This document shows positions 1 to 35,231 of a stretch of 64,000 nt of DNA, piece after piece (position 1 is the first letter of the stretch; every line of letters begins with the position of its first letter). The stretch lies in the NCBI GenBank assembly GCA_050175015.1, contig JBFXJJ010000001.1, positions 32,001 to 96,000 on the forward strand, written 5' to 3'. The position numbers and the translations under genes are program-made. Source of the DNA: Alphaproteobacteria bacterium (GTDB lineage: Bacteria > Pseudomonadota > Alphaproteobacteria > JBFXJJ01). The notes beneath the pieces are model-generated. The model was not told where the DNA came from and did not search any database. It was given only the letters and a program-made list of their open reading frames with translations.

Positions 1-2
1 CC

Positions 3-62
3 TTGATAGTAAAAACAAACAAAACCTATATAAATTTTATAACTAACATTAGGGGGGCATAA
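3..62 (+). CDS. 3' end of an upstream gene, probably the DUF58 protein of the MoxR/bat operon (truncated by window edge)
   Basis: Open frame LIVKTNKTYINFITNIRGA* ends TAA at 60-62, just before the next gene. Identity inferred only from the usual moxR-DUF58-DUF4381-VWA order. Confidence 0.35.
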   Translation: MIVKTNKTYINFITNIRGA

Positions 63-64
63 CT

Positions 65-547
65 GTGCCGACAACAGCAGTAAGTTTATCAGACCTGCGA
101 GATATTCATCTGCCAGAGGAAATAAGCATTTTTCCCTTAGCATACGGCTGGTGGCTGGTTTTAGGGATTGTTATCCTTTTAATTCTCTCCCCTTGGTTTA
201 TCAAAAGTTTCAATAAAATCTATGCCCTAACCCTTAGAAAAAAAGCTTTGAGAGAACTCTTGGAACTTGAAAAAAGGTATAACCAAAATAATGATTTTCA
301 AGCTTTAGCCTCTGCGGTATCAAGGTTAATAAAAAGAATTGCTCTGCTCAATTATGATAAAGAATATATTGCCAAGTTATATGATAAATCTTGGGCGGAT
401 TTTTTAGTAAAAACAGGCTTTAATAATCCTGATTTAGCACAAACCATAAGCTGTGCAGCGTATCTTAATAAAGACAATTTTAGTTGTAAAACTAATAATA
501 TTGTTTTGCTGGAACTAACTAAGAAATGGATAAGGCAGAACACATGA
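65..547 (+). CDS. DUF4381-like membrane protein of the bat/MoxR operon
   Basis: N-terminal LRDIHLPE..PLA.GWW motif plus TM segment; ALSRLIKR/W.DFL-type motifs; GTG start; precedes a VWA gene. Confidence 0.8.
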   Translation: MPTTAVSLSDLRDIHLPEEISIFPLAYGWWLVLGIVILLILSPWFIKSFNKIYALTLRKKALRELLELEKRYNQNNDFQALASAVSRLIKRIALLNYDKEYIAKLYDKSWADFLVKTGFNNPDLAQTISCAAYLNKDNFSCKTNNIVLLELTKKWIRQNT

Positions 548-5216: not shown

Positions 5217-5322
5217 AAAAGCAAGATAAAAAGCTGTTGATGCTTTAAGTATTTATCTACAGACTTAAAAAAACTTGTGCTACCTTTTTTAGGTTAAATT
5301 TTTTATTGTAAAGGAGAAATAA

Positions 5323-6435: not shown

Positions 6436-6443
6436 AGCAAAAC

Positions 6444-6528
6444 AAAGCCATAATTCCAACTGTCCCAAAAGAGATTGCAGTAACAAATTGCAGTTTGAAG
6501 AAACGAACAAGAGGAGTTATGGCTTTTT
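6444..6528. terminator. Long stem-loop between convergent ald and the cNMP gene (terminator or structured RNA)
   Basis: AAAGCCATAATTCC (6444-6457) pairs with GGAGTTATGGCTTT (6513-6526) with one G-U pair, ending in a T-run. Confidence 0.5.
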
Positions 6529-6583
6529 CTAAAGTGACTACTTAAAAAATAAAACTTTAAAGTCTAACTAAAAGAAATATGCT

Positions 6584-8461
6584 CTAAGGCTTATTTTTTT
6601 TAACGATGATTGGTTGGGTGTTTCTAATTCGCCCAACTAAAACATCAATTAGGCGACGTATAACAGGATCATTTTGCTCTAATTTTATCAGCCTGTTTTT
6701 AAATTCAATATCTGGGATAACAGTTATTTCTGTTTTGCCAATAGCTTTGGCTGAAGCCATTCTTGGCTTATCATCAATAATAGCCATTTCTCCAAAAATA
6801 TCACCTCTTTTTAAAACCGCTATGCGTCTTGCTTTTTTATAAATTTCCACATTACCATAAACAATTAAAAAAGCCTCTATTCCGATATCTCCTTCATTAA
6901 AAATAACATCGCCATTTTCAAAAATTCTTCTTTCGAAAGATGAAACTCTTGGTGTTTGATTAGTTTCAAAATGATTAATTTGAGATACCTTTTCGTCAGC
7001 TGTCTTTTTAGATTTAGAATTAAGTAATTCGTCAAAATGCTGAAGATGCTTTTGTTTCTTAGAACTTGGTATTTTTAAACTTGGCAAAAGATTAGTTAGG
7101 TTCATTAATGCTCTGACGGCATTAATTTTTAGAACATCCCCTTTTATCATATCATCTATGGTTTGCCATTTTTGTGTAATTTCTTGAATACCAGAATTAA
7201 TTATATCTGCATTCTTTTCATAAATAGAGCCATCTGTTAAGTTAAATAGATAAAAAATACGAGCTATCTCTGATGGCAGAAGATTCAATATTGTCTTAAT
7301 TGCATTACTAAAATCGTTGTCATCCGAAAAATTAATATGTTGAATCCTTCTTGTTAAGGATTCCGCAATCATGCCGCCACCAATCAAATTATCCAGATAA
7401 ACAAGCTCTTTAATAATCAGAGAAATAAAAGATATTTCTGAAGCCTTAGTTTCCTGAGTTATGGAATCTGTTTTTCTAATAATATTATTAATCTTTTTTA
7501 TAATGGCTTTTTTTAAAAGCTCCGGCTCTTTACTAGCAATAAAGGCATTGATATCAGCAAGATGTGACGGATCTTTTTCTTGAGGAACATAATTGCCCTT
7601 ATAAAGATTAATTAAGGCCAAAAGATAAGATCCTCTGTCTTCTTTTTTATCTATTATCTCAAAACAAGCCTTATCGCTTTCAAAAATTTCATTTAATAAC
7701 TCATCTATGTAATGAATATCTAATTCATCAACATCTGGTTTTACAAGATTGAGCAATAAAATTGTTTTTTCAGTCCATGAATTAGCATAGCTTAGATACG
7801 ATGCTAAAGAGTTATATATTGCAAATTCCTGAGCCTTAGGATTAACACTTTTTCTGATTTCAATAAGCGTTTTAGCAAATCCAAGTTTAGCAAGATACGG
7901 ATAATAATCTTTTATCTTCTTTATTTTTTCTTGCAAAACAGGAATATTGTCTAAGATATTGATAAAGTTTGCTTTTATTTTTTCTTGGGGCGTTTTATGG
8001 GTTTTGCTGTAAAGGTAGGAAATATCATCTAACCCCTGTTCTACCAAATTATTATTACTCATCAACTGCCTAAATCTAGAATTTAGAAACAAGATTTCAG
8101 TTACGGTAATTTTGTAATCATCAAGATAATCTCTTAAGATTTTAGATAAAAATAATTTGGCTTCAAGTTGATAGAAATCATTTACAGATTCACAGTAAGT
8201 GTGAAGTTCAGAACTATAGTCAGATAAATGCTTTGCCGCATCTTGTTCTGGTCGGCACTCAAAAATAATTCTTTCTTTTTTAGCATTGCCCCCTAATAGC
8301 TGCGTTTCAATAACTCTCAAAGCTTTTGGCTTTTTTTCTACGTCTTTAGCTAATTGAACTGCAACGTTTAAGGCATCATCCTGAGTTCCAAAACTTTTAC
8401 GTTTTTCCCATTTAGCATCAACATTTATAAATAAGTCATAACTAATGTTTCCTGTAGACAC
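6584..8461 (-). CDS. Large protein with C-terminal cyclic-nucleotide-binding domain
   Basis: C-terminal IFNEGD.G.EAFLIVYG.VEI...GDIFGEMAIIDDKPRMASA; ~500-aa helical N-terminal region of unknown function; GTG start with GAGGGG RBS. Confidence 0.8.
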   Translation of the reverse strand: MSTGNISYDLFINVDAKWEKRKSFGTQDDALNVAVQLAKDVEKKPKALRVIETQLLGGNAKKERIIFECRPEQDAAKHLSDYSSELHTYCESVNDFYQLEAKLFLSKILRDYLDDYKITVTEILFLNSRFRQLMSNNNLVEQGLDDISYLYSKTHKTPQEKIKANFINILDNIPVLQEKIKKIKDYYPYLAKLGFAKTLIEIRKSVNPKAQEFAIYNSLASYLSYANSWTEKTILLLNLVKPDVDELDIHYIDELLNEIFESDKACFEIIDKKEDRGSYLLALINLYKGNYVPQEKDPSHLADINAFIASKEPELLKKAIIKKINNIIRKTDSITQETKASEISFISLIIKELVYLDNLIGGGMIAESLTRRIQHINFSDDNDFSNAIKTILNLLPSEIARIFYLFNLTDGSIYEKNADIINSGIQEITQKWQTIDDMIKGDVLKINAVRALMNLTNLLPSLKIPSSKKQKHLQHFDELLNSKSKKTADEKVSQINHFETNQTPRVSSFERRIFENGDVIFNEGDIGIEAFLIVYGNVEIYKKARRIAVLKRGDIFGEMAIIDDKPRMASAKAIGKTEITVIPDIEFKNRLIKLEQNDPVIRRLIDVLVGRIRNTQPIIVKKNKP

Positions 8462-15433: not shown

Positions 15434-18400
15434 CTATTCTCTAAGAGTATCAATAATACGAGTCATCTTAGATTTAATGCGATTGTATCTTTCCTCAGAG
15501 AGATCATCAATAGCCACAGGCTGCAGCCTATCAGTATCGATGGTTCCGTCTGATGTTGATACACCATCACGATCGATTGAATCTACACAGGTATTAGTGT
15601 AAGGATTCCAAATCTTATCGTTAGAACATACACAAGTTCCACTGCTGTAGCTTGCTCCACTTGGACAATCTTTACATTCACCATTGTACCAAATTTGGTT
15701 CATACCACAGTCTACTGTATCAGCTGTCTTACATTCGCCATTTTGGCAAATATTAGATGAACAATGTCTGTTTTCTAAACATTCAAGACATTCAGAACCA
15801 CTCCAATAAGGCGTCTCTGAAGGACAGCACTTATTATCGCTACGACATTGCCTAATACCTGAGCAGTGACTGTTTGTGTAACATTCAATACAACCAGCCT
15901 GATCGCCAGTACATTCTACACACTCATAGTTAGAATTACACATCATTCCCGGAGTATCACAAGTTCCAGTATGTCCGCTAGTACCTGTACAAGGTTTACA
16001 TGCATTATTCTTCCAATAAGGTGTATATGATCCACAGCAAGAACCAGCATTAGTACCTGAAGTTTGGCACTGTTGGACACCAGAGCAAGCCGCATCACTA
16101 TATGAGCAAGAATTAGCTCCAGTAGCTAGATTACATGAGCCTGTACAGCATGAGTTAGTATTAACACAAGCGCCATTTCCATCTGGTTTCTGACTAGATC
16201 CACAGTTACAAGAACCACAAGCTGACGATGTAGAACATTCTGCACAATACTTAGGATCACCGGTACACTTGAAACCAGCTCCGCAATCACTATCGAAAGT
16301 ACATAAATCAGGGATTTCAACATCTCCGCCATAATTACATTCGTAATTTTCATCGCAGATAACACCTGTTGAAGGACATCCATTCTGACCGCCTGGAGTA
16401 TGGCATTCTGCACAGAAATATTCTCCACTCTGTTTAATACGATAGTATGGTTTATGCGATGGACAAGTGTTGCATGTATTTTGAGCACCATCAGCTGTTG
16501 AACAAATTTGATTACACCTAGTCCAAGCTGTTGTTCTGCTGTCAACCATACCTATTGGGCATCTATATTCTTTAGCACCCTGCGTTGACTGCATACACTG
16601 CCAGCTTGTTCCTATACCTGTACCCCATGTATAACCACAAAGGCCACGACATCCAGGAAGATCATCAGCGCTCTTATTCAAAACAGTATAATTAAACGGA
16701 TAATAATGCCATGAATAAGACGTTCCAACATCTCTAGGAGCAGAACAAGGAACACAACCAGCAAATTTAGGCCAAGTTGTTCCTGTTGGTGTACCCTCTG
16801 TTGCTTCATGATTATGACTATCATGACGCCAGAATGGAGCGTGCGGAGGACATGTACCACAAGTTTTTTCTCCAAAGTGGTCAATAATACCTGCATTAGT
16901 CATATTAATCGTCCATGAAGTATCACACTCAACACATTGACCATTAACGCATTCCAAACCACTTCCGGCACCACAATCATAATTTTCTTTACAGGTTGGT
17001 CCAATCCATTCAAAGTCAACACATTCACCACCGTCAGGGCAGTTACTAAATTCTGTTGAATTTGCTTTGTTACAACAAGTACAGAAATATTGATCTATAG
17101 GACCGGTTGATTTTGATTCCGCCTTCTTACGATAATATGGCTTATAGGAAGGACATGTTTGACATTCTGCCGTTCCTTCTTCGGTAGGACAGAGGTTAAC
17201 ACAGCTTCTCCAAGAATTATCAAAAGGTGTCGGAGGAATAAACCCAATTGGGCAGCGGTACATAATACCATGAGCATTTCTGTCATGAGCATTTCTCTGG
17301 CACTGCCAAGCAACGGTTGCACCACAATATCCGCGACATCCCGGAGTATCATATCTAGAAACATCATTAGGATAGAACGTTGCATGATGCGAACCTCCTG
17401 CTTCACAAGGAGTACAACCACCAGCCGCTGTTCTATAGTAAGGTGAATGAGTTGGACATGATCCACAAACAGATGCCCTAACTGCCGCATTTGTTTCTTC
17501 TGAATAGTGTGCACCAGAAATTGGGACAGATGGACAAGCTACGCATTCTCCAGTATTTGCATCACATTGCTTGCCGCTACCTTCGCCGCAGGCATGGTGA
17601 TTAGCACAAATACATCCACCCTCACCATCTTCTTTAAAGTTTTCTGGACACTTGCCGCAAACGTAGTTTTCATCACATTCTGAACAATATTCACTTGGCT
17701 GACTTGCCGTATGACAAGATGTACAGAAATATTCGCCATTCTGTTTTACGCGGTAGTAAGGTTTTGTTGAAGGACATGTGTTACATATATATTCTTCACC
17801 ATCAGAGATAGGACATATTGTAGCGCACTTGGTCCAAGCACCGGTTCTATTATCAACCATACCAACTGGACACATAGCAATATTAGCACCAGAAGTTATT
17901 TGGTTACATTGCCATTTATCAGAAGGAGAGCTACTTCCCCACGTGTATCCACAAAGACCACGACACCCAGGATAACCATCTGGAGTTTTATAAGGAGAAA
18001 CATCCCATTTGAATGTATGATAATACCAACTATACGCTGTTCCAGTGTTCTTTGGAGCCGAACATGGTACACAGCCTGAGAATTTATCTCTTCCACCGCC
18101 TGTATGATCATCATAACGCCAGAATGGGGCATGAGGAGGACATGTTCCGCAAGTTTTATCTAGAGACTGGTCTATAAATGCACCATTAGTGAAACTAACT
18201 GTCCAAGATGTGCTGCATTCTACACAAGTTCCATCAACACACTCGTAGCCATTTTGAGCACCACAATCATAGTTTTCTGAACAACTCTTTCCTGTGTATT
18301 CAAAATCTTTACAAGTTCCACCATCAGGACAAGTACCACCTTCTGTAGAATCAGACTGCTTACAACAAGTACAGAAGTACTTATCTATTGGTCCCGTTGA

Positions 18401-21400
18401 CCTTTCATCAGTTTTCTTTCTGTAGAATGGTTTATATGAAGGACACGTTGGACATTCGGCACTGCCGTTTGAAAGCGGACATACAGCACCACAATTACGA
18501 CGAACAGTATCAAATGTCGTATCTGGAACGATACCTACAGGACAACGTTCAATTACATCATGGGTTGGTAAACCATAATTATATCTTGAGCAAAGCCAAA
18601 CACCAGTTGCTCCACAATAACCACGGCAACCCATCGGAGTATCTAAACTTGAGAATGAATTAGCGTGGAACCCTGCATAGTAAGAACCACTGGAATCACA
18701 AGCTGTACATCCTATTGCCGAACGGAAGTAAGGTGCATGAGGTGGACACGTTGGACAAATTGACGCTCTAACACCAGCAACAATGTCATGACTATGATGC
18801 GCACCTGATACTATTGTATTAGGACAATCTACACATTCGCCACTAACACACATTTTACCACTACCTTCAATACAAGCATGGTGATTCAAGCAGTAACAAC
18901 CGCCTTCGCCATCATCTCCAAAGTTCTTTGGACAAGACTGACAAACATAATCCTCATCACAATCATCACAGAAAGAGCTTGTTTGATTTGGTGTATGACA
19001 TGACGAACAGAAATATTCACCATTTCTCTTTATTCTGTAATACGGTTTTGTATAAGGACAAGAGTTACAAGTATTAACAGCCCCATCAGATGTCGGACAA
19101 AGAGTATCACATCTTTTCCAAGCGGTTGTTCTAGTATCAACCATACCTATTGGACAACGGTATTCTTTAACTCCAGAATTTAACTGATTACACTGCCAAT
19201 TACTGGTATTTGTAGAACCTCCCCATGTATAGCCACAAAGACCTCTACAACCCTTGGTCTCTTCATAGCTCTTGTTTACATTGTTATAATTAAACGTGTA
19301 ATAATGCCAAGAATATGAGGCCCCTGTATTTTTTGGAGCCGAACAAGGGACACAGCCCGAGAACTTAGTCCAAGGAACGGAAGCTACAGGACTGCCCTGT
19401 CCAACTACATGGAAGTGGTCATCATACCTCCAGAATGGGGCATGAATAGGGCAAGTACCGCAAGTTTGCTCATAGCGTTGATCTATAATTGCAGCATTTG
19501 TGCTATAGACTGTCCAAGTTGTATCACATTCTGTACAGGTACCACTAACACATTCATAGCCACTTTGAGCACCACAATCATAATCCTCAGAACAACTCTT
19601 TCCAATATATTCAAAATCAACACATTCTCCACCATCTGGACAAGTACTTCCAATCGTTGAATTTGCCTGTTTACAACAAGTGCAGAAATATTGATCTACT
19701 GGACCTTTTGAATTTTCTGCTGTTTTTTTACGGAAGAACGGCTTGTATGACGGACAAGTATCACATTCCCCACCAGTTTCTGTAGTATCACATAATGTTG
19801 TACAACTTCTCCAAACAGCATCGAACGGTATTGGGTTCATATAACCAACAGGACAACGTGCCATAATACTATATGAAGTATTTGGATAAGCATAACGTTG
19901 ACACTGCCAATTATTACAATAACCACGACACCCTAAAATTGCACTACCAGGAAAACCATTATAGTAGAAATTGGCCCAATAGGCTCCAGCTGTTGAACAA
20001 GGAGAACATGCTCCTATAGCTGCACGATAGAACGGAGCATATGTTGGACAACTTCCACAGGTAGATGCTCTAACTGTAGCAAGGAGTTCTTGAGAACCTT
20101 CTGAACCTCCAACGTTAGCTGAAGGACAAGCTTCACATTCTCCTGTTGAGAAGTTACATTGCCTACCACTACCTTCACCACAAGCATGATGGCTTATACA
20201 ACGACATTTGCCTGTCCCATCGTCTTCGGTATAATCTGGACAGCCCAAACATACATAGTTTTCATCACAAATACCACAGTAACTACTTGGTGTGCTTGGT
20301 GTATGACACGCTGTACATAAATATTCACCACTTGGCTTCTTACGGTAATATGGCTTGTTATATGGACACGAGTTACAAGTATTACTTTCACCATCAGATG
20401 TTGAACATACCGCACCGCATTTAGTCCAAGCTCCTGTTCTTGCATCAACAATACCAACTGGACAACGAGCTTGCCAAGAACCCTGATTTGATTGCATACA
20501 CTGCCATTTATCAGAAAGTGATGTACTTCCAGAGTAATAGCCGCAAAGACCTCGGCATCCAGGATAGTCATCGGCTGTTTTATATGGGCTTATACCATTG
20601 CTAAATGTCCAAGAATGCCAGTAATATGCCGTTCCTGTGTTCTTTGGAGCCGAACAAGGCACACAACCTGCGAATTTAGACCAACCTCCACCAGTATGGT
20701 CATCATAACGCCAGAATGGAGCATGTATTGGACAAGTTCCACAAGTCTTATCTTGTGATTGATCTATAACAGCACCGTTGTTAAAATTAATAGTCCAAGT
20801 TGTATCACATTCTGTACACTTACCATCAACACATTCATAACCACTTTCAGCACCGCAATCGTAATTTTCTGAACAATCCTTACCGGTATATTCAAAATCC
20901 GTACAAGTACCGCCGTCTGGACAAGTTCCTCCATTAGTACTATTTGCTCGCTTACAACACGTACAGAAATATTGATCTAATGGGCCAGTTGATCTTGCTG
21001 TAGTTTTCTTACGGAAATATGGTTTATGTGGCGGACAAGTATCACATGTACTTGTGTTATCATTTGTTGGACATAAATTAGTACAATTACGTCTTGTAGT
21101 ATCAAACAATAATGGAACATCGTACCCTACTGGACAACGCTCAATTATTCCATGAGTAGATAAACCATGATTATATCTTGAACATACCCAACTACTACAA
21201 TAACCACGGCACCCCACAGGCGTATTTAAAAGCGGGAAAGGATTGCCATGATGAACAGCATAATAAGCTGCACTAGAGTCACAAGGTTGACAACCACCAG
21301 ATCTATAATAAGGAGCATAAGGTGGGCACGTTGGACAAACTGATGCCCTAACTGCAGCAACAGTATCATGCGAATGATTAGCTCCTGATATAACTGTAGA

Positions 21401-24400
21401 TGGACAAGCTACACAAGCACCGTTCACACACATTTTTCCGCTGCCTTCACCACAAGCATGGTGATTAGCACAAAGACAACGACCATTACCATCATCTATG
21501 AAGTTTTCTGGACAACCCAAACACGTATAATCAGCATCACACTCACCACAGAAAGAACTTGGCTGGCTTGGTGTATGACATGACGAACAGAAGTATTCAC
21601 CATTTGGTTTCATACGATAATAGGGAGTTGTAACAGGACAAGAATTACAAGTGTTAGCCTCACCATCATTAGTATCACAAAGAGGACCACACACAGTCCA
21701 AGCTGCTGTTCTCTGATCAACAATGCCTACTGGACAACGATACTCTTTCGCTCCACTATTAAGCTGCATACAAGCCCAGTTACTTCCAGGATATTGACCA
21801 GACTGATAACCACAAATACCACGACAGCCCGGAGAATCATCAGCACTCTTATTTAAAGCAGAGTTATTAAATGGATAATAATGCCAATAAGATGCAGATG
21901 AACCTGTACTCTTAGATGCCGAACATGGGACACAACCAGCAAATTGAGGCCAAGCAGTCCCTGTAGGATTGCCTTCTACAGAAGTATGAGAGTGATCATC
22001 ATAACGCCAGAATGGAGCGTGCGGTGGACATGTTCCACATGTTTTTTCACCAGCATGATCTATGATAGAACCAGTAACCGCGGTTAATGTCCAAGAAGTA
22101 TCACACTCTGTACATTTACCATTAACACATTCGTAGCCACTTTGGGCACCACAATCATAGTTATCTGAGCAATCTTTGCCAGTATATTCAAAGTCTGTAC
22201 AAGTACCACCAGATGGGCAAGTGCCTCCATCTGTAGTATTAGCTTGTTTACAACACGTACAGAAGTACTGATTTATAGGACCTGATGATCTATGATCTGT
22301 TTTCTTACGGAAATATGGTTTATATGACGGACAAGTTCCACAAGATGTAGTATTATCTCCTGTTGGACAAAGTGTTGAACATGCTCTATAAGTCGCGTCA
22401 TATGGATATGGAGGCTGATAACCTACAGGACAACGAGCAATAATATGATGTTGGTTATAGTTCCAAGCATATATAGAACAAATCCAAGCCCCAGCACCAC
22501 CACAGTAACCACGACAACCTAAGATACCTTTAGATGGCATAGCATTCTGCCAAACATTGCCATGATAAGCCGCGCTTGATTCACAAGGTGTACACCCGCC
22601 TGCTCCAGTTCTAAAGAAAGGAGCATATGTTGGGCATGTTCCACAGGTTGAGGCGGCTACACTAGCATTTGTTTCATGAGAACCTGAAGCTCCAGAAACT
22701 GGTACAGATGGACAAGCAACACACTTGCCACTTATACACTGCATACCACTGCCTTCTGAACCACAAGCAAAGTGATCAGTACATGCACAACTACCATCTC
22801 CTGGGTCTTCAAAGTGATCTGGACATGCTGTACACATATAGTTTTCATCACAAGCTCCACAGAACGAGCTTGGTTGATTTGGTGTATGACATGATGAACA
22901 GAAATATTCACCATTTGGTTTTTTACGATAATATGGAGAAACAGCTGGGCACGTATTACATGTATTAGCAGCACCATCTGCAATAGGACATAAAGTATTA
23001 CATACTGTCCAGGCCCCAGTTCTATTATCAACCATACCAACAGGACACATAGCAACATTAGAACCAGATGTTACCTGTAAACACATCCAAGCGCTTTGAG
23101 CTGACTGCCCAACTTGCGCTCCTGCCTGATAGCCGCAAAGACCTCGGCAACCTGGATACCCTTCTGGAGTCTTATAAGGAGAAACGTTCCATGCAAATGT
23201 ATGATAATACCAATAATAACTAGAACCTGTGTTCTTAGGTATGGCACATGGTACGCATCCAGAAAATTTAGTCCAAGGTGTTGCCGCTAAAGGATATCCT
23301 TGACCAACAGCATGGTTATGATCATCATAACGCCAGAATGGGGCATGCGGAGGGCAGGTTCCACAAGTTTTAATGCCAGATTGATCAAGATATGCGCCAT
23401 TAGTAGTAGATACAGTCCAAGAAGTATCACATTCTGTACACTTACCATTAACACACTCATAACCACTTTCTGCACCACATTCATAATTTTCTGTACAATC
23501 CTTAGACCATTCAAAATCTGTACACGTGCCTCCAGACGGACATGCGCCGCCATCGGTAGTATCTGCTTGTCTACAACAAGTACAGAAATATTGTTCAATA
23601 GGACCATTCACGTTTTCTTGAGGTTTTCTACGATAAAAAGGTTTGTATGATGGACACGTTGAACATGTTGCATCATTGTCTCCAAATGGACAAACGGTAT
23701 CACAGTCACGCCAAGTCTGATCAAACGGAGTTGGAGCAATCATACCAACTGGGCAACGAGTCATAATGTAATTAGTATTGATATTATAGGCATATCTACG
23801 ACAAGACCAAGCATTACAATATCCACGGCATCCAGGAATCTTAACATTAGGAAAACCATTTGGATAAATATTTGCCCAATATACTCCAGCCGCAGAACAA
23901 GGTGTACACCCTCCTGCGTCTTTTCTATAGAATGGAGCGTGAGGAGGACAACTTGGACAAGTAGAAGCTATAACTGTTGCATTAGTTTCATGAGAATAGT
24001 CACCACCACTGACAGCAGCAGAAGGACAAGCAACACAATCACCACTTACACACTGCATACCACTGCCTTCAGCACCACATGCAAAATGGTTTATACAACG
24101 GCAGCCACCTTTTCCATCGCTCTCAAAATTTGTAGGACATGTTTGGCATACATATTTTTCATCGCAATCATCACAATATGGGCTACTTGTACTTGGAGTG
24201 TGGCAAGACGTACAGAAATATTCACCACTAGGTTTCTTACGATAATATGGCTTTGTTGCGGGACAAGAATTACAAGTATTGCTTGATCCATCTGTAATTG
24301 GGCAAACTTGACAAGCTGTCCAAGCACTAGTTCTCTTATCAATCATACCTATCGGACAACGAGCCTGCCAAGAGCCTTGATTAGACTGCATACAACTCCA

Positions 24401-25516
24401 ATCACCTCCAGGATAAACTCCTCCTGTATAACCACAAAGACCACGACAACCTGGCAAGTCATCTGCGGCTTTATATGGGCTCACTGTATAATTAAACGTC
24501 CAATAGTGATTATAATATTGATAACCTGTATTTTTTGGTGCAGAACAAGGCACACAGCCTGAAAACTTAGTCCAATTTGTACCTGTTGGATTTCCTGTGG
24601 TTGAGGCATGATTATGATCATCATAACGCCAGAATGGAGCATGAACAGGACAAGTGCCGCAGGTTTTCTGCGTTGTATGGTCAATAATAGAAGCAACACC
24701 ACCTGTAGTAACAGTATTAATTGTCCATGTTGTATCGCATTCTACACATTTATTATCCACACATTCATAGCCTAAACTGTTTTTATCTACACTCATACAA
24801 TCAAAATTGTTGTTACAAGTTTTCGTCCATTCAAAATCTTTACAAATTCCTCCTTCTGGACAAGCTCCATCATCCGTAGAATCAGCTTGACGACAACAAG
24901 TGCAGAAATATTGGTCGACAGGACCTGTAGATTTGGCCTCTGTCTTTTTACGGTAATAAGGTTTATGAGCAGGGCACGTATCACACTCATTACTATTATC
25001 ATCTGTAGGACAAAGCTCTGTACAACTACGCCAAGTAGCATCAAGTAAAGACGGATTCATATAACCAACAGGACAACGGTACATGATGTTATATTGAGGT
25101 CTATAATGTCCATACCTCTGGCATTGCCAAGCAGCCGAAGCACCACAATATCCTCGGCAACCAGGAATTTTATAAGGAGGAACATCATGATAATAATATG
25201 TTGCGTGATAAGAATTTCCAGCTTCACAGGGAGTACAACCACCAGCTCCAGATCTAAAAAACGGGGCATACGTTGGACAGGTTCCACAAACAGATGCTGC
25301 AACAGCTGAGTTTAATTCATGACAATAATGCGCCCCAGAAACAGCCGCCGTTGCACAATTGGTACAAACTCCATCAACACATTCTCTACCACTGCCTTCA
25401 ATACCACAGTCAAAATGGCTAGTGCAGTACGTAGCGTATGAGACATTAGGAGAGCTGACTAAAATGGCACAAAATGTGATACCAAAAGATACTAATATAC
25501 TGATTTTATTGAACAT
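15434..25516 (-). CDS. Giant secreted cysteine-rich tandem-repeat protein (~3360 aa; seven ~430-aa repeats plus Cys-rich C-terminal region)
   Basis: Uninterrupted 10-kb ORF. ATG at 25516 has an upstream TAGGAG RBS. Sec-type signal MFNKISILVSFGITFCAILVSSPNVSYA. 46 Cys counted in repeat 2. Has its own terminator. Confidence 0.92.
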   Translation of the reverse strand: MFNKISILVSFGITFCAILVSSPNVSYATYCTSHFDCGIEGSGRECVDGVCTNCATAAVSGAHYCHELNSAVAASVCGTCPTYAPFFRSGAGGCTPCEAGNSYHATYYYHDVPPYKIPGCRGYCGASAAWQCQRYGHYRPQYNIMYRCPVGYMNPSLLDATWRSCTELCPTDDNSNECDTCPAHKPYYRKKTEAKSTGPVDQYFCTCCRQADSTDDGACPEGGICKDFEWTKTCNNNFDCMSVDKNSLGYECVDNKCVECDTTWTINTVTTGGVASIIDHTTQKTCGTCPVHAPFWRYDDHNHASTTGNPTGTNWTKFSGCVPCSAPKNTGYQYYNHYWTFNYTVSPYKAADDLPGCRGLCGYTGGVYPGGDWSCMQSNQGSWQARCPIGMIDKRTSAWTACQVCPITDGSSNTCNSCPATKPYYRKKPSGEYFCTSCHTPSTSSPYCDDCDEKYVCQTCPTNFESDGKGGCRCINHFACGAEGSGMQCVSGDCVACPSAAVSGGDYSHETNATVIASTCPSCPPHAPFYRKDAGGCTPCSAAGVYWANIYPNGFPNVKIPGCRGYCNAWSCRRYAYNINTNYIMTRCPVGMIAPTPFDQTWRDCDTVCPFGDNDATCSTCPSYKPFYRRKPQENVNGPIEQYFCTCCRQADTTDGGACPSGGTCTDFEWSKDCTENYECGAESGYECVNGKCTECDTSWTVSTTNGAYLDQSGIKTCGTCPPHAPFWRYDDHNHAVGQGYPLAATPWTKFSGCVPCAIPKNTGSSYYWYYHTFAWNVSPYKTPEGYPGCRGLCGYQAGAQVGQSAQSAWMCLQVTSGSNVAMCPVGMVDNRTGAWTVCNTLCPIADGAANTCNTCPAVSPYYRKKPNGEYFCSSCHTPNQPSSFCGACDENYMCTACPDHFEDPGDGSCACTDHFACGSEGSGMQCISGKCVACPSVPVSGASGSHETNASVAASTCGTCPTYAPFFRTGAGGCTPCESSAAYHGNVWQNAMPSKGILGCRGYCGGAGAWICSIYAWNYNQHHIIARCPVGYQPPYPYDATYRACSTLCPTGDNTTSCGTCPSYKPYFRKKTDHRSSGPINQYFCTCCKQANTTDGGTCPSGGTCTDFEYTGKDCSDNYDCGAQSGYECVNGKCTECDTSWTLTAVTGSIIDHAGEKTCGTCPPHAPFWRYDDHSHTSVEGNPTGTAWPQFAGCVPCSASKSTGSSASYWHYYPFNNSALNKSADDSPGCRGICGYQSGQYPGSNWACMQLNSGAKEYRCPVGIVDQRTAAWTVCGPLCDTNDGEANTCNSCPVTTPYYRMKPNGEYFCSSCHTPSQPSSFCGECDADYTCLGCPENFIDDGNGRCLCANHHACGEGSGKMCVNGACVACPSTVISGANHSHDTVAAVRASVCPTCPPYAPYYRSGGCQPCDSSAAYYAVHHGNPFPLLNTPVGCRGYCSSWVCSRYNHGLSTHGIIERCPVGYDVPLLFDTTRRNCTNLCPTNDNTSTCDTCPPHKPYFRKKTTARSTGPLDQYFCTCCKRANSTNGGTCPDGGTCTDFEYTGKDCSENYDCGAESGYECVDGKCTECDTTWTINFNNGAVIDQSQDKTCGTCPIHAPFWRYDDHTGGGWSKFAGCVPCSAPKNTGTAYYWHSWTFSNGISPYKTADDYPGCRGLCGYYSGSTSLSDKWQCMQSNQGSWQARCPVGIVDARTGAWTKCGAVCSTSDGESNTCNSCPYNKPYYRKKPSGEYLCTACHTPSTPSSYCGICDENYVCLGCPDYTEDDGTGKCRCISHHACGEGSGRQCNFSTGECEACPSANVGGSEGSQELLATVRASTCGSCPTYAPFYRAAIGACSPCSTAGAYWANFYYNGFPGSAILGCRGYCNNWQCQRYAYPNTSYSIMARCPVGYMNPIPFDAVWRSCTTLCDTTETGGECDTCPSYKPFFRKKTAENSKGPVDQYFCTCCKQANSTIGSTCPDGGECVDFEYIGKSCSEDYDCGAQSGYECVSGTCTECDTTWTVYSTNAAIIDQRYEQTCGTCPIHAPFWRYDDHFHVVGQGSPVASVPWTKFSGCVPCSAPKNTGASYSWHYYTFNYNNVNKSYEETKGCRGLCGYTWGGSTNTSNWQCNQLNSGVKEYRCPIGMVDTRTTAWKRCDTLCPTSDGAVNTCNSCPYTKPYYRIKRNGEYFCSSCHTPNQTSSFCDDCDEDYVCQSCPKNFGDDGEGGCYCLNHHACIEGSGKMCVSGECVDCPNTIVSGAHHSHDIVAGVRASICPTCPPHAPYFRSAIGCTACDSSGSYYAGFHANSFSSLDTPMGCRGYCGATGVWLCSRYNYGLPTHDVIERCPVGIVPDTTFDTVRRNCGAVCPLSNGSAECPTCPSYKPFYRKKTDERSTGPIDKYFCTCCKQSDSTEGGTCPDGGTCKDFEYTGKSCSENYDCGAQNGYECVDGTCVECSTSWTVSFTNGAFIDQSLDKTCGTCPPHAPFWRYDDHTGGGRDKFSGCVPCSAPKNTGTAYSWYYHTFKWDVSPYKTPDGYPGCRGLCGYTWGSSSPSDKWQCNQITSGANIAMCPVGMVDNRTGAWTKCATICPISDGEEYICNTCPSTKPYYRVKQNGEYFCTSCHTASQPSEYCSECDENYVCGKCPENFKEDGEGGCICANHHACGEGSGKQCDANTGECVACPSVPISGAHYSEETNAAVRASVCGSCPTHSPYYRTAAGGCTPCEAGGSHHATFYPNDVSRYDTPGCRGYCGATVAWQCQRNAHDRNAHGIMYRCPIGFIPPTPFDNSWRSCVNLCPTEEGTAECQTCPSYKPYYRKKAESKSTGPIDQYFCTCCNKANSTEFSNCPDGGECVDFEWIGPTCKENYDCGAGSGLECVNGQCVECDTSWTINMTNAGIIDHFGEKTCGTCPPHAPFWRHDSHNHEATEGTPTGTTWPKFAGCVPCSAPRDVGTSYSWHYYPFNYTVLNKSADDLPGCRGLCGYTWGTGIGTSWQCMQSTQGAKEYRCPIGMVDSRTTAWTRCNQICSTADGAQNTCNTCPSHKPYYRIKQSGEYFCAECHTPGGQNGCPSTGVICDENYECNYGGDVEIPDLCTFDSDCGAGFKCTGDPKYCAECSTSSACGSCNCGSSQKPDGNGACVNTNSCCTGSCNLATGANSCSYSDAACSGVQQCQTSGTNAGSCCGSYTPYWKNNACKPCTGTSGHTGTCDTPGMMCNSNYECVECTGDQAGCIECYTNSHCSGIRQCRSDNKCCPSETPYWSGSECLECLENRHCSSNICQNGECKTADTVDCGMNQIWYNGECKDCPSGASYSSGTCVCSNDKIWNPYTNTCVDSIDRDGVSTSDGTIDTDRLQPVAIDDLSEERYNRIKSKMTRIIDTLRE
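16335..25426 (-). repeat. Seven tandem intragenic repeats of ~1.27-1.31 kb
   Basis: CxxCH anchor codons at 24200, 22886, 21575, 20303, 18995, 17711 and 16400 (spacings 1314, 1311, 1272, 1308, 1284, 1311 bp). Confidence 0.92.
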
Positions 25517-25758
25517 GTTCTGTTCTCCTAATGCAAGATGTAAAAAACCCATTAAGCTCTTTACACATGGAAACCCTTATCTGTATTTTGCCTTAAAATT
25601 TATCCCAATGCAATTAAAAAAAATGCGCTATTTTTATGAAAATTCTATATTTTTTTTATTTTTATTTAATACAATTTTTTAATTCTGTTTTGTTTCAATC
25701 TGTCTTTTTTTAAAAAATATTCCTTTTTTATAAGACTGCTTTTTTAGAATCTTATGAC

Positions 25759-28478: not shown

Positions 28479-32089
<3,611 letters not shown>

Positions 32090-32186
32090 AGGCGCATTTA
32101 TACCAATTTCTTGCAAATTAAGATGATACATTATTTTTGTAAAAACCTATTGTAATCTTAAAAAAAACAACTGCTAAAAGCAGGCA

Positions 32187-33302
32187 TCAAACACGCATAG
32201 GCATTAAAACATAAGTCGCTCTTGTATCTGCGATATTATTAATTACCGTTGGAGATGCTGAATCTGAAAAAGCAAAACGCACCGTATCTTGCCCTACTTC
32301 TTGCAGAATATCTAGAAGGTAGCGATAGTTGAAACCTATTTCTAGCGCTTCACTATTATAAGAAACATCTATCTCTTCGGTTGCACTCCCAGCTTCTTGA
32401 TTGGAAGAAGAAATAACAAGCGTAGAATTTTTAAGAAGTAGTTTAACGCCTTTAGTTTTTTCTGAAACGATAGAAACTCTGTCAACAGCACCCGCAAAAA
32501 TCGCAACATCGGCGTCCATAATAATATTGTTATCTTTTGGAATAACTTTTTCATAATCAGGATAATTGCCATCAATAAGTTTAGATGTCAAAATAACATC
32601 ATCAAAGGTGAACTTAATCATATTTTCAGAAAGAGAAACTGAAATCTCGCCAACAAACGTATCTATTAATTTTTTAACTTCTGTTATAGTTTTGCGAGGA
32701 ATAATAATTCCTGGAATAGATTCTGCCCCCTTAGGAACATCTATTTCCATACAAGCAAGGCGGTGACCGTCTGTAGCTACAGAACGCATAACTTTAACAT
32801 CTTCTTTTTCTGTAGTATGAAGATAAATGCCATTCAAATAAAATCTTGTTTCTTCTGTTGAAACTGCAAATTTTGTTTTATCAATCAATGCTGCCAAATC
32901 TTTCGAATCAAGCAAGAAAGAATAGCCTAAATCTTCACCAGCAATAGTTGGAAAATCTTCCGCAGGAAGGCACGACAAAGAAAAGTTAGAGCGTCCAGCT
33001 TTCACCACCAAAGAACTATTATCTGCAATAAAATCAAAACTGATTTCACAACCATCAGGAAGCTTACGAACAATATCGTAGAGAGTATGAGCCGAAACTG
33101 TAGTTAAACCGCTATCCAAAACATTAGCAGCTATTGTTTCTTCAATCTCAATTTCCATATCAGTTGCTTTAAGAACGAGCTTACTGTTTATAGCTTCCAA
33201 TTTCACATTTGAAAGCACTGGAATAGTGTTTCTCTTTTCAACAACACTTTGAATATGGGTTAAAGATTTTAATAAGAGTGAACGTTCAACTGTAAATTTC
33301 AT
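32187..33302 (-). CDS. dnaN: DNA polymerase III beta clamp
   Basis: VVEKRNTIPVLSN, ATDME, STEETRFYLNG, ATDGHRL, LMPMRV. Confidence 0.99.
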   Translation of the reverse strand: MKFTVERSLLLKSLTHIQSVVEKRNTIPVLSNVKLEAINSKLVLKATDMEIEIEETIAANVLDSGLTTVSAHTLYDIVRKLPDGCEISFDFIADNSSLVVKAGRSNFSLSCLPAEDFPTIAGEDLGYSFLLDSKDLAALIDKTKFAVSTEETRFYLNGIYLHTTEKEDVKVMRSVATDGHRLACMEIDVPKGAESIPGIIIPRKTITEVKKLIDTFVGEISVSLSENMIKFTFDDVILTSKLIDGNYPDYEKVIPKDNNIIMDADVAIFAGAVDRVSIVSEKTKGVKLLLKNSTLVISSSNQEAGSATEEIDVSYNSEALEIGFNYRYLLDILQEVGQDTVRFAFSDSASPTVINNIADTRATYVLMPMRV

Positions 33303-33593
33303 CGATATCTTAATACCTCTAATTTAAAAACAAAAACTTTGGTTCGAAAAGTATAACATAAACCCATTAAATCCAAAGCTGTTTTAGCGATTCGGACATA
33401 AGTTATACACGTATTTTTATTTCTTTTGGATGCCCATAAGGACTTTAGTGTGATATGGCGATAGATAAGAGCATTTTTGATTTATTTGTATTAAAAAATA
33501 AAGTTTATACTTTTGCCGTAAGATAAGATTATTGCTAAGCAAATTAAGGCTGTTTTTGAAAAAAACATTAAAAACTTTTTTATAAATGTGTTG

Positions 33594-33676
33594 TTTCTTA
33601 ACTGACGTTTTTATAAAAAAGTTTTGCTTTTACTAAAAGCAACGCCGCCACTTGGATTGCCTTAAGGTAAAATAAA
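33594..33676 (+). repeat. Degenerate dispersed intergenic repeat, copy 2
   Basis: TTTGCTTTTACTAAAAGCAA (33623-33642) followed by TTGCCTTAAGGTAAAATAAA. Confidence 0.55.
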
Positions 33677-33764
33677 GCCGGCAAATAATCACAAAGCACA
33701 CCAAACGAATTTAACCTTAATTTTACACTAAACGCTTACTAAATTAAGCGCTTAAGTCTTTCTA

Positions 33765-35231
33765 TTACTGACCAAGCATTCTTCTTAAAAGATCAACATC
33801 TTCGGCAAAAGCTCTATCTGAATTACAAATTTCTTCAATTTTACGGATAGCATGCATAATTGTCGTATGGTCTCTGCCAAATTTGCGGCCTATTTCAGGA
33901 AGCGAACGTGAAGTAAGCTGTTTAGCAAGATACATTGCAACCTGTCTTGGACGAGCAACAGACCTTGCTCTGCGTGCCGAATGCATTTCTCTAATAGAAA
34001 TATTAAAATGTTCCGCAACTTTTCTTTGAATCTCGTCAATAGTTACATTGCGGTCATAAGCATTAAGCAAGTCTTTCAAAACATCTTGAGCCATCAAAAG
34101 ATTAATTGTTCTGCCCACCAAAAGCTGTGAGTGTGCAACAACTCTCTGCAACGCACCTTCAAGCTCTCTAACATTTGAAGTAATCTTATGAGCTAAAAAC
34201 TCCAAAACCTGAACTGGCACTTTAACGCCGAGTTGTTCTGCTTTAGCTTGAAGAATACCAAGACGAAGCTCGTAATTTGTGGGATGAATATCTGCAACCA
34301 AACCACTGCTTAAACGGGATTTTAAACGACTCTCTATACCCATCAAATTAGTTGGTGACTTGTCAGCAGAAATAATAATCTGGCGTCCCTGCTCTATTAA
34401 TGAATTAAATGTATGGAAAAATTCTTCCTGCGTAACGTCTTTGTTGCAAATGAACTGAACATCATCAATCATTAAAACATCAACCGAACGGAACATCTCT
34501 TTAAAAGAGACCGTATCTTTATATCTGATTGACTTAACAAATTTATACATGAATTTTTCAGCAGAAAGACACAAAACTGTCCTATTAGGAGAGCGCTCTT
34601 TAATATGCCAAGCGATAGCGTGCATTAAGTGCGTTTTGCCTAAACCAACACCAGAATATAAAAACAAAGGGTTAAAAGCAATATCATCGGATTCTGCAAC
34701 TCTTCTAGCTGCGGCATAAGCAAACTCATTAGATTTGCCAATAATAAAGTTATCAAACGTAAATTTAGGATTTAAAGGAACAGAAATGCCATCATTACTG
34801 TCGTTATCATAAAAAGAATCTGGTCTATTGATAAATTTATTTTTAGCTGGATATAAATTGCTGGAATTAATTGGTTCAGGACGTGGAACCGGCATATTCC
34901 CAACCAAAGAATTTTCAATATTAGAAGAATCAAATTTTTCTTTTCTTGGTTTAGGAGCCTGTCCTGGGCGTACTAAAAATTCAATATCTTTAATTTGAGG
35001 ATTAAATTTACACCATAAAGCACGGATTCTGTCTGAGTAATGAGTTATAACCCAATTACGCATAAATCTAGTTGGCACACAAAGACTTAACTTTTCGCCG
35101 TCAAGAGAGCCCACAGTCATGGGTTTAAGCCAACTTTCGAAAGCTGCATCGCCAATTTCGGTCTTTATTTGACCGCAAACCTGCCCCCATTGATCTTGTA
35201 AAATATTTTCGTTCTTATGGCTCTCCGCCAT
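33765..35231 (-). CDS. dnaA: Chromosomal replication initiator DnaA
   Basis: NPLFLYSGVGLGKTHL, DDVQF, QEEFFHTFN, RELEGAL, RPRQVAMYL, RDHTT. Confidence 0.99.
   Translation of the reverse strand: MAESHKNENILQDQWGQVCGQIKTEIGDAAFESWLKPMTVGSLDGEKLSLCVPTRFMRNWVITHYSDRIRALWCKFNPQIKDIEFLVRPGQAPKPRKEKFDSSNIENSLVGNMPVPRPEPINSSNLYPAKNKFINRPDSFYDNDSNDGISVPLNPKFTFDNFIIGKSNEFAYAAARRVAESDDIAFNPLFLYSGVGLGKTHLMHAIAWHIKERSPNRTVLCLSAEKFMYKFVKSIRYKDTVSFKEMFRSVDVLMIDDVQFICNKDVTQEEFFHTFNSLIEQGRQIIISADKSPTNLMGIESRLKSRLSSGLVADIHPTNYELRLGILQAKAEQLGVKVPVQVLEFLAHKITSNVRELEGALQRVVAHSQLLVGRTINLLMAQDVLKDLLNAYDRNVTIDEIQRKVAEHFNISIREMHSARRARSVARPRQVAMYLAKQLTSRSLPEIGRKFGRDHTTIMHAIRKIEEICNSDRAFAEDVDLLRRMLGQ

What the first reader, a model, noticed from the sequence alone, without database searches (positions are those of the whole stretch)
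15434..25516. Giant (~3360 aa) secreted Cys-scaffold protein with seven repeats / fourteen homologous modules: candidate new bacterial surface or adhesin system
Seen: a Sec signal peptide followed by seven ~430-aa repeats. Each splits into two related half-modules sharing C-x2-CP.(H/Y)AP(F/Y).R ... GC.PC ... GCRG.C ... W.C ... CP(V/I)G ... C-x3-C ... C-x2-CP...P(Y/F).R ... Y.C..C. I counted 46 Cys in repeat 2 (~10%), implying roughly 350 in the protein. The Cys scaffold is nearly invariant while loops rich in Y/W/H/N vary. Established: long CxxC-rich extracellular repeats are typical of eukaryotic surface proteins (Giardia VSPs, ciliate immobilization antigens, furin/EGF-like repeats) and uncommon in Gram-negative bacteria. 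Inference: a disulfide- or metal-stapled multivalent binding protein with antibody-like variable loops, possibly for attachment to a host or prey cell. I do not recognise the repeat as a named family.
Basis: partly seen in the sequence, partly recalled or inferred. Interest (0 to 1): 0.9.

Follow-up and report, generated by a model that had tools for sequence, protein, structure and literature searches.

The report
Giant orphan cysteine-scaffold exported protein
A real 3,360-residue exported bacterial protein built from fourteen cysteine-rich modules of no known family, whose tail domain is shared with a dozen other putative surface proteins of the same uncultured alphaproteobacterium.

Summary
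Window 15434-25516 (-) is one intact ORF with a Shine-Dalgarno site and a Sec-type signal peptide. It has 362 Cys (10.7%) and 90 CxxC motifs. It is built from 14 alternating A/B modules, i.e. 7 repeats, 56-68% identical to each other.

The gene is native: its GC3 of 0.22 equals its neighbours', and it sits near dnaA-dnaN-recF-gyrB on a 312-kb contig. The host is a landfill-metagenome alphaproteobacterium, the only genome of its GTDB order. That genome gave no hit to DsbB, VKOR, CcdA or COX1.

No Pfam, NCBIfam, PDB-sequence or fold match was found. In 1.84 billion representative proteins, only a 5'-truncated paralogue and a small lipoprotein matched convincingly, and both are in the same genome.

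At least six GLUG/M26_N-type genes of this genome share it, out of a family of 12 or more.

Best reading (about 45%): a long Cys-stapled stalk (disulfide or zinc) displayed on the cell envelope through that shared domain, acting as adhesin, spacer or coat. Function, localisation and Cys chemistry are untested.

The parts
15434..25516 (-). Coding sequence of the giant protein (3360 aa from Met13; stop at 15434-15436). An in-frame ATG at 25552 would add 12 residues.
25433..25516 (-). Sec-type signal peptide, residues 13-40 (MFNK...VSYA), with a predicted cleavage site before TYC
   Evidence: Sequence. It is the only hydrophobic segment. AGGAG lies 8 nt upstream. The cleavage site is inferred.
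24098..25426 (-). Repeat 1 (module A1 24818-25426, module B1 24098-24817)
22784..24097 (-). Repeat 2 (A2 23498-24097, B2 22784-23497), 46 Cys. This repeat was the one folded.
21473..22783 (-). Repeat 3 (A3 22172-22783, B3 21473-22171)
20201..21472 (-). Repeat 4 (A4 20876-21472, B4 20201-20875)
18893..20200 (-). Repeat 5 (A5 19595-20200, B5 18893-19594)
17609..18892 (-). Repeat 6 (A6 18284-18892, B6 17609-18283)
16358..17608 (-). Repeat 7 (A7 16994-17608, B7 16358-16993; B7 is shortened, 20 Cys)
15437..16357 (-). C-terminal Cys-rich domain (CTD), residues 3066-3372, 42 Cys. It is shared with the paralogue (66% identity) and with six GLUG/M26_N-type genes (38-42% identity by tblastn).
15908..16039 (-). 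The roughly 45-aa unit CC..PYW...C..C...C...C..NY.C..C inside the CTD (residues 3172-3215). It is the best match to the five tandem units of lipoprotein P0005.
   Evidence: 44.8 bits; shuffle control
15437..15502 (-). Hydrophilic C-terminal tail with RY.RIK.K..RI, which is invariant in all 8 aligned CTDs
18103..18134 (.). 31-mer (encoding CPPHAPFWRYDDH) repeated exactly at 23317-23347. The independent k=31 contigs break here.

Best explanation
The gene is real, intact and native to an uncultured, deep-branching, probably anaerobic alphaproteobacterium.

Its product is exported by Sec. It consists of 14 cysteine-scaffold modules followed by a 307-residue Cys-rich C-terminal domain (CTD). The same CTD ends at least six GLUG/M26_N-type proteins of this genome.

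I read the protein as the largest member of a lineage-specific family of cell-envelope or surface proteins. In this reading the shared CTD is the common attachment or sorting module. The 14 modules form a long, mostly beta-hairpin stalk held together by its roughly 320 cysteines, as disulfides and/or Cys4/Cys3His zinc sites. The stalk projects from the cell as an adhesin, spacer or protective coat.

Shown: the ORF, the signal peptide sequence, the repeat anatomy, native codon usage, the lack of outside relatives, the CTD sharing, and the unit shared with a lipoprotein.

Inferred: export beyond the periplasm, surface anchoring through the CTD, the chemistry of the cysteines, and any binding function.
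For: Anatomy and origin:
- One intact 10.1-kb ORF with SD and signal peptide, and no other hydrophobic segment.
- GC3 is 0.224 against 0.22-0.28 in nine neighbours; the excess GC sits at codon position 2.
- The scaffold is under constraint: 35 invariant columns across 14 modules that are only 35-61% identical. Repeats differ by 0.3-0.5 changes per site.
- Cys numbers per module are even, 22 or 24, in 12 of 14 modules.

The shared CTD:
- It is found at the extreme C-terminus of 8 genes with two unrelated kinds of N-terminal part. Three further copies are cut by contig ends.
- Six CTD-bearing proteins turned up in the public set. Four of them carry PF05342 and three of those also PF07581, families of large secreted or surface proteins.

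The shared unit:
- The roughly 50-aa unit also builds P0005, which has a lipoprotein-type signal.
- An HMM of that unit gives 22 domains of 5 bits or more in the giant, against 4 in 100 window-shuffled copies.

Structure and redox:
- The AlphaFold2 model of one repeat is almost all short strands, with pTM 0.69 and pLDDT 65.7.
- A membrane-anchored DsbA-type protein with a CPFC motif is encoded.
Against: - No experiment and no RNA or protein data exist.
- No route across the outer membrane was identified. One of the two secretins is a type IVB pilus PilN-family protein. The other scores 122 bits against a GspD cut-off of 351. There is no barrel, RTX or sorting-tag hit.
- DsbB, VKOR and DsbD/CcdA gave no hit in a genome rated 99.4% complete. 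Mass disulfide formation therefore lacks its usual machinery.
- The GLUG-type CTD bearers have no recognisable signal peptide or start codon. A common export path with the giant is thus not established.
- The CTD could be a functional head rather than an anchor.
- Both structure models are of low confidence (pLDDT 65.7 and 59.8).
- A profile-profile comparison of modules against CTD is not significant (probability 14.8%).
Confidence: 0.45

Rival explanations
1. Metal-binding protein. The roughly 90 CxxC pairs form Cys4/Cys3His sites for zinc or other thiophilic metals. The protein then acts mainly as an extracytoplasmic metal sink, metal store or redox buffer in anoxic, metal-rich leachate. 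Alternatively its fold is metal-stapled rather than disulfide-stapled.
For: - The only non-self matches of the module profile outside this genome are DUF723/DUF4379 treble-clef zinc-finger repeat proteins (E 1.9e-5 to 8e-4), over CxxCP.H..FW...GC..C.
- An HMM of those units hits the CGTCP.HAPFWR element of all 7 B modules at 3.7-5.6 bits, against a maximum of 1.7 in 100 shuffles.
- No DsbB, VKOR, CcdA or COX1 hit, and the run is labelled landfill metagenome.
- Giardia VSPs, the closest analogy, bind zinc in substoichiometric amounts (PMC2996952, passages read).
Against: - The zinc-finger similarity is a few bits, mostly covers only the first knuckle, and fails Pfam thresholds on the giant.
- Many invariant non-Cys residues (P, G, R, W, Y) and fixed module lengths point to a folded scaffold, not a metallothionein-like sink.
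- A periplasmic DsbA-type oxidase is present.
- This rival overlaps with the best explanation, since a metal-stapled stalk fits both.
Confidence: 0.25
2. Soluble secreted or periplasmic protein with another role, such as a protease-resistant decoy, an inhibitor array or a matrix component. In this reading the shared CTD is a functional domain and not an anchor.
For: - There is no membrane anchor, lipobox, barrel or known sorting signal.
- No outer-membrane export system is linked to the gene.
- Small Cys knots are typical of inhibitors. The best weak fold rows include squash trypsin inhibitors, but at E above 2.
Against: - The fold matches are not significant.
- A common C-terminal domain on proteins with unrelated N-terminal parts is more typical of targeting or anchoring modules (general knowledge, recalled).
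Confidence: 0.2
3. Eukaryote-like protein acquired from, or aimed at, a protist host, of the VSP, furin-like or TNFR kind.
For: - Language-model look-alikes at 0.77-0.84 include clusters in which a minority carry VSP, Furin-like_2 or TNFR-like families.
- The weak Foldseek rows are TNFR, EGF and Dkk chains.
Against: - All those scores are below the tools' own trust levels (atlas under 0.9; Foldseek E 1.4 or worse).
- No eukaryotic or other homologue appears among 1.84 billion representatives.
- Codon usage is native.
- There is no ATP/ADP translocase hit.
Confidence: 0.05
4. Assembly artefact, chimera or decaying pseudogene.
For: - The genome is a metagenome-assembled genome.
- k=31 contigs break twice inside the gene at a repeated 31-mer.
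- The paralogue is cut by a contig end.
Against: - 10,119 bases are open in one frame.
- The three pieces have equal depth and 0 differences, and the middle piece can only be placed between the other two.
- Repeats are 56-68% identical, too diverged to collapse.
- The scaffold is conserved.
Confidence: 0.05

Closest known systems
Giardia variant-specific surface proteins (VSP, PF03302) and other high-cysteine membrane proteins
   Same: - N-terminal signal peptide, about 11% Cys, many CxxC.
- A multigene family with variable N-terminal parts and a conserved C-terminal end.
- Metal binding is possible.
- Some family members lack an ATG (PMC2996952, passages read).
   Different: - No HMM match.
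- No C-terminal membrane helix or CRGKA. Here the conserved end is a 307-aa Cys-rich domain plus a hydrophilic RY.RIK.K..RI tail.
- The host is bacterial.
- The size is 3360 aa, with 14 large ordered modules.
GLUG / Peptidase_M26_N (PF07581, PF05342; ZmpA-like N-terminal region) proteins of the same genome
   Same: They share the C-terminal Cys-rich domain and tail with the giant: 38-42% identity over about 285 residues.
   Different: - Their N-terminal parts are GLUG-type repeats with few Cys, whereas the giant has none.
- They have a conserved upstream motif array and no visible start codon or signal peptide.
- The giant has an ordinary SD, ATG and signal peptide.
Treble-clef zinc-finger repeat proteins (DUF723 PF05265 / DUF4379 PF14311)
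   Same: Local motif CxxCP.H..FW(Q/R) ... GC.xC.
   Different: - The match is only a few bits.
- Those proteins have no signal peptide in the sequences seen.
- Their unit is about 65 aa with a helical spacer.
- Pfam does not score the giant.
Giant repeat adhesins of Gram-negative bacteria (RTX/T1SS adhesins, autotransporters); comparison recalled from general knowledge
   Same: Size, tandem modular build, and a likely extended shape.
   Different: - Those are exported without a Sec signal (T1SS) or carry a C-terminal barrel (T5SS), and are Cys-poor.
- Here there is a Sec signal, 10.7% Cys, and no RTX or barrel hit.
Myxococcus Cys-rich repeat (TIGR04201)
   Same: The small C..DSDC......C knot. 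CTD residues 19-33 score 16.3 bits. A similar knot occurs in a Cys-rich ORF of another genome of the class.
   Different: The score is below the cut-off of 25 bits, covers 15 residues only, and none of the 14 modules scores.

Membership tests
Giardia VSP (PF03302) | Match to the family HMM | tested here: not met
   No VSP hit at E up to 1 on the whole protein, nor at E up to 10 on single modules and the CTD.
Giardia VSP (PF03302) | C-terminal membrane-spanning helix followed by CRGKA | tested here: not met
   The only hydrophobic segment is N-terminal. The C-terminus reads ...RIIDTLRE. The feature definition was taken from PMC2996952.
Furin-like / growth-factor-receptor / TNFR / EGF Cys-rich repeats | HMM match or a shared fold | tested here: inconclusive
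   No Pfam hit. Best Foldseek row is 4-1BB at E 1.4. VIA-align found no chain at Z of 2 or more for either model. The models have pLDDT 65.7 and 59.8, so the fold test is weak.
Treble-clef zinc finger repeats (DUF723/DUF4379) | HMM match over the whole unit, with four metal ligands | tested here: not met
   Pfam does not score the giant. An HMM of my own scores 3.7-5.6 bits on 7 elements, mostly over HMM positions 2-25 only.
Treble-clef zinc finger repeats (DUF723/DUF4379) | Zinc bound | not testable with these tools
   Needs metal analysis of the protein.
T1SS RTX giant adhesins | No Sec signal; RTX nonapeptide repeats; C-terminal T1SS signal | tested here: not met
   A Sec-type signal is present. 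No RTX family hit.
Autotransporters (T5SS) | C-terminal beta-barrel domain | tested here: not met
   The C-terminal 307 aa is a Cys-rich domain with no barrel family hit.
CTD-bearing family of this genome (unnamed, defined here) | Alignable C-terminal domain of about 285-307 aa with the invariant Cys pattern and the tail RY.RIK.K..RI at the very end of the protein | tested here: met
   tblastn at 4e-46 to 3e-52 against six GLUG-type genes and 2e-131 against the paralogue. The 8-row alignment has 87 invariant columns.
Myxo_Cys_RPT (TIGR04201) | Score over the curated cut-off (25 bits) | tested here: not met
   16.3 bits, E 0.0078, on the CTD only.

The most novel reading that the evidence does not exclude
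The giant gene belongs to a bacterial counterpart of the Giardia VSP system: a cysteine/metal-stapled variable coat of an anaerobic alphaproteobacterium. It would be encoded by 14 or more genes that share one C-terminal domain. Most copies carry a common upstream motif array and lack their own start codon and signal peptide. Such copies would be expressed only after recombination or switching at the conserved ATATCC...YP.YGYSQ junction, which is exactly where the giant's paralogue breaks the assembly. The 14-module array would be a new fold class of extracytoplasmic protein.
Probability: 0.1. Interest if true: 0.85.

Novelty: new variant of a known kind. Interest (0 to 1): 0.6.

Why it matters
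- Very large tandem-repeat surface proteins are common in bacteria. One built from about 360 cysteines is not, least of all in a Gram-negative lineage that shows no DsbB or VKOR.
- The module has no detectable relative in about 15 billion predicted proteins and no fold match. A structure would therefore probably add a new disulfide- or zinc-stapled domain type.
- The C-terminal domain shared between two unrelated kinds of N-terminal part offers a testable candidate for a new envelope-targeting or anchoring module in Alphaproteobacteria.
- The start-less paralogues with a fixed upstream motif array raise a separate question about how this family is expressed.
- The limits are plain: one metagenome-assembled genome, no culture and no expression data.

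Tried and rejected
- Family libraries. Pfam on the whole protein gave only two sub-threshold chance rows. Pfam on modules A and B at E up to 10 gave nothing. NCBIfam gave nothing for the giant, a repeat or P0005.
- PDB by sequence with the 20-module profile: best E 0.054, to unrelated enzymes.
- Protein searches. The giant-length search found 1 of 1262 candidates, itself. The single-repeat near-length search found 0 of 925. The profile search of 1.84 billion representatives found 8 at E up to 0.001, of which only P0002, P0003 and P0005 are convincing, and all three are from this genome.
- Genome and metagenome scans. Genome contigs: 38 pattern matches, 0 relatives. Metagenome contigs with the CTD: 58 matches, 0 relatives. 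The same with modules: 54 matches, 0 relatives. Of 401 genomes of the class, modules were found in 1, its own. The CTD was found in 3, its own plus two 48-residue matches at E of about 1e-4. The order holds only this genome.
- Structure. The two AlphaFold2 models gave no Foldseek match at E of 0.001 or better (repeat model only) and no VIA-align match at Z of 2 or more.
- ESM Atlas: best score 0.84 for a repeat and no usable hit for the CTD. These are leads only.
- hhalign of modules against the CTD: probability 14.8%. Homology of whole modules to the CTD is not shown. Only the roughly 45-aa unit links them.
- Promoter and terminator scans around the gene were no better than shuffles for promoters and gave no clear terminator at the 3' end.
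- Rfam on four GLUG-type loci found only a tRNA.
- Sequencing runs: no RNA holder was listed. One DNA run holds the stretch and may be its source.
- Conserved neighbours: none among the giant, paralogue and P0005 loci. The genes upstream of the 12 GLUG-type loci all differ.
- I looked for a contig end carrying a signal peptide that could join the paralogue's 5' junction and found none among 98 contig ends.
- Literature. Three searches listed no paper on a protein like this. Of the papers listed, I read only passages of PMC2996952. The others I saw as listing and abstract start only. None seemed to bear on the claims.
Full report
**The observation**

One search lists a single ORF at 15434..25552 on the minus strand, 3372 aa from the first ATG. 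AGGAG lies 8 nt upstream of it. It opens a classical signal peptide, MFNKISILVSFGITFCAILVSSPNVSYA, followed by TYC. This is the only hydrophobic stretch in the protein. The public protein set holds exactly this 3360-aa form (P0002).

The protein has 362 Cys (10.7%) and 90 CxxC motifs.

Cutting at the C..(H/N)(F/Y)(D/A/E)C knot gives 14 modules. They alternate between type A (199-205 aa, 22 Cys, 23 in the first) and type B (212-240 aa, 24 Cys, 20 in the last). That makes seven A+B repeats, and repeat 2 has 46 Cys. A modules are 54-61% identical to each other and 35-39% identical to B modules. There are 35 invariant columns, mostly Cys.

One descriptive clause does not hold. The variable columns are rich in S, T, A and N, while Y, W and H sit more in conserved columns.

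**Is it an artefact or contamination?**

GC is raised (0.42 against about 0.33), but only at codon positions 1 and 2. GC3 is 0.224, against 0.22-0.28 in nine neighbouring genes. The neighbours are ordinary bacterial genes. On one side are alanine dehydrogenase, GlnE and a YhdP-like protein. On the other are an M48 peptidase, a nuclease, tRNA-Gly and gyrB-recF-dnaN-dnaA. The gene lies on a 312-kb contig of a 2.53-Mb genome rated 99.4% complete.

One public run, labelled landfill metagenome and possibly the source, holds the stretch. Its k=31 contigs cover the gene in three pieces with no difference. They break at one 31-mer that occurs at 18103 and at 23317. The middle piece carries that word at both ends, so it can only lie between the other two. 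Equal depths (17.6, 17.4, 16.8) say it is passed once. The repeats are 56-68% identical, too different to collapse in assembly. This supports seven repeats, although it comes from the same sample.

**The organism**

GyrB is at most 68% identical to anything in the species-level genome collection. The 80 best loci carry alphaproteobacterial or unresolved proteobacterial titles. The genome is the only one of its GTDB order.

It gave no hit to COX1, DsbB, VKOR, DsbD/CcdA or the ATP/ADP translocase. It gave one DsbA-family hit, a protein with an N-terminal membrane anchor and a CPFC motif. It also gave two secretins. One is a type IVB pilus PilN-family protein. The other is well below the GspD cut-off. 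I infer an anaerobic or microaerobic life style, without proof.

**Relatives**

Nothing known matches:
- Pfam and NCBIfam.
- PDB sequences.
- Two AlphaFold2 models searched with Foldseek and VIA-align.
- The ESM Atlas.

A profile of the 14 modules, run against 1.84 billion representative proteins, found only three convincing proteins. They are the protein itself, P0003 and, weakly, P0005. All three are from this genome.

P0003 is a second gene of the giant type on contig C11. It has six modules plus the same C-terminal region and is cut at its 5' end by the contig start. The repeats of the two genes form two separate clades with 100/98 support. Either each array expanded after the genes split, or each evolves in concert.

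P0005 is a 631-aa protein with a lipoprotein-like signal and five tandem 52-aa units, C..CP...PYWR.G.C.PC...C...C..NY.C..C. An HMM of that unit hits the giant's C-terminal region at 44.8 bits. It also hits the second C..CP element of every B module. In total there are 22 domains of 5 bits or more, against 4 in 100 window-shuffled copies. So an elementary unit of about 45-50 aa underlies the family.

The remaining matches are DUF723/DUF4379 treble-clef zinc-finger repeat proteins. The resemblance, CxxCP.H..FW...GC..C, exceeds shuffles but amounts to only 3.7-5.6 bits. It is a lead on the geometry of the knuckle, not membership.

Modules were not found in 400 other genomes of the class, nor in the genome or metagenome contig scans.

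**The shared C-terminal domain**

A scan of all ORFs for Cys content showed six further proteins whose last roughly 285 residues align with residues 3066-3372 of the giant. The tblastn E-values are 4e-46 to 3e-52 at 38-42% identity. The 8-row alignment has 87 invariant columns. These include the hydrophilic tail RY.RIK.K..RI.

Three more copies are cut by contig ends. The N-terminal parts of these proteins are GLUG/Peptidase_M26_N repeats (precomputed Pfam; a partial ZmpA match).

Outside the genome, only two such proteins were found, on small contigs of 2.8 and 7 kb. They are at most 61% and 51% identical to any copy here. The CTD was not found in JGI metagenome contigs. In 400 other genomes of the class it gave only two 48-residue matches at E of about 1e-4.

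A domain that sits at the very end of proteins with unrelated N-terminal parts is, by analogy with other bacterial systems (recalled), most simply a common targeting or anchoring module. That is my inference and the core of the best explanation.

**An unexplained side finding**

Twelve GLUG-type loci, plus a relic on C21, begin with the conserved (I/L)YP.YGY(S/A)QTAIT.C. They have in-frame stops 0-25 codons upstream and no ATG, GTG or TTG and no signal peptide.

DNA conservation starts sharply at ATATCC. Upstream lie 650-970 nt of AT-rich non-coding DNA with a fixed array. GGGTAAC-N4-GGGTAAC sits at about -249 and -140. ACATATTGAT sits at about -292, -187 and -67. The first motif occurs 25 times in the genome, 23 of them at these loci.

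Contig C11, which carries the giant's paralogue, begins exactly at ATATCCTAAT. The more distant relative P0014 has an ATG 13 codons upstream.

Possible readings are non-canonical starts, silent copies served by an unassembled expression site, or switching at the junction. The giant itself has an ordinary start and no such array.

**Mechanism**

*Shown:*
- Sec-type signal.
- 14 ordered modules with an invariant Cys and Pro/Gly/Arg/Trp scaffold.
- Even Cys counts per module in 12 of 14.
- A mostly beta-strand prediction.
- The shared CTD.
- A unit shared with a lipoprotein.

*Inferred:*
- After export the modules fold into a long stalk stapled by Cys pairs.
- The CTD fixes it to the envelope.

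Whether the staples are disulfides or metal sites is open. A DsbA-type oxidase is present. However, DsbB and VKOR gave no hit, the organism is probably anaerobic, and the knuckle motif resembles a zinc finger. What the stalk binds, if anything, is unknown. The idea of antibody-like aromatic loops is not borne out.

**Comparison and novelty**

It works most like a Giardia VSP-type coat protein: signal peptide, about 11% Cys, CxxC motifs, a conserved C-terminal end, a multigene family, and zinc binding reported for VSPs (PMC2996952, passages). It is not a member of that family, because it lacks the HMM match, the membrane helix and CRGKA. It is not an RTX adhesin or an autotransporter either.

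I rate it a new variant of a known kind, namely giant modular bacterial surface proteins, built from a domain family and a C-terminal module that have no described relatives.

Interest is 0.6. The chemistry and the orphan fold would surprise a specialist. But there is one metagenome-assembled genome, no expression data and no function.

Noticed in passing
G000 contigs C4:93730(-), C5:145474(+), C5:172133(-), C6:51261(+), C6:1642(-), C10:87575(+), C11:86937(+), C13:8875(+), C17:44317(+), C23:1846(-), C23:4989(-), C27:1564(-); relic at about C21:16770 (all outside the window): Twelve GLUG/M26_N-type paralogues start with the conserved (I/L)YP.YGY(S/A)QTAIT.C. They have in-frame stops just upstream and no canonical start codon or signal peptide. 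Each has 650-970 nt of AT-rich upstream DNA carrying a fixed motif array: GGGTAAC-N4-GGGTAAC at about -249 and -140, and ACATATTGAT at about -292, -187 and -67. How they are expressed is unexplained.
   Followed up: partly
L015 (G000:C11) 1-4786: A second gene of the giant type (six modules plus the CTD, 1594 aa open). It is cut by the contig start exactly at the ATATCCTAAT junction shared with the GLUG-type genes. No contig end supplies its 5' part.
   Followed up: partly
L016 (G000:C13) 4852-6795 (-): P0005, a 631-aa protein with a lipoprotein-like signal and five tandem 52-aa Cys units. These are the elementary unit of the giant's family.
   Followed up: yes
window 28479-35231 (-): A dnaA-dnaN-recF-gyrB cluster, so the window probably lies next to the replication origin. 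From memory this linked order is less usual in Alphaproteobacteria; I did not test that.
   Followed up: no
whole genome G000: No hit to DsbB, VKOR, DsbD_TM/CcdA, COX1 or the ATP/ADP translocase in a genome rated 99.4% complete. There is one membrane-anchored DsbA-type protein with CPFC at C6:46896-47660.
   Followed up: partly
G000 contig ends C9 (right) and C15 (left): Adapter-like AGATCGGAAGAGC at contig ends, a sign of untrimmed reads in the assembly.
   Followed up: no
L110 (G018:C2) 1654-2973 (+): Another alphaproteobacterial genome, from a different family, encodes a 439-aa Cys-rich ORF with repeated CTSDSDC..SQYC knots. It weakly matches the start of the CTD (E 8e-4). The CTD knot also gives a sub-threshold TIGR04201 Myxo_Cys_RPT hit.
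   Followed up: partly
G000:C7:27801-42172 (-): Two adjacent ORFs of 2353 and 2443 aa with about 1% Cys. The N-terminus of one looks like a non-ribosomal peptide synthetase condensation domain. That motif is recalled and was not tested.
   Followed up: no
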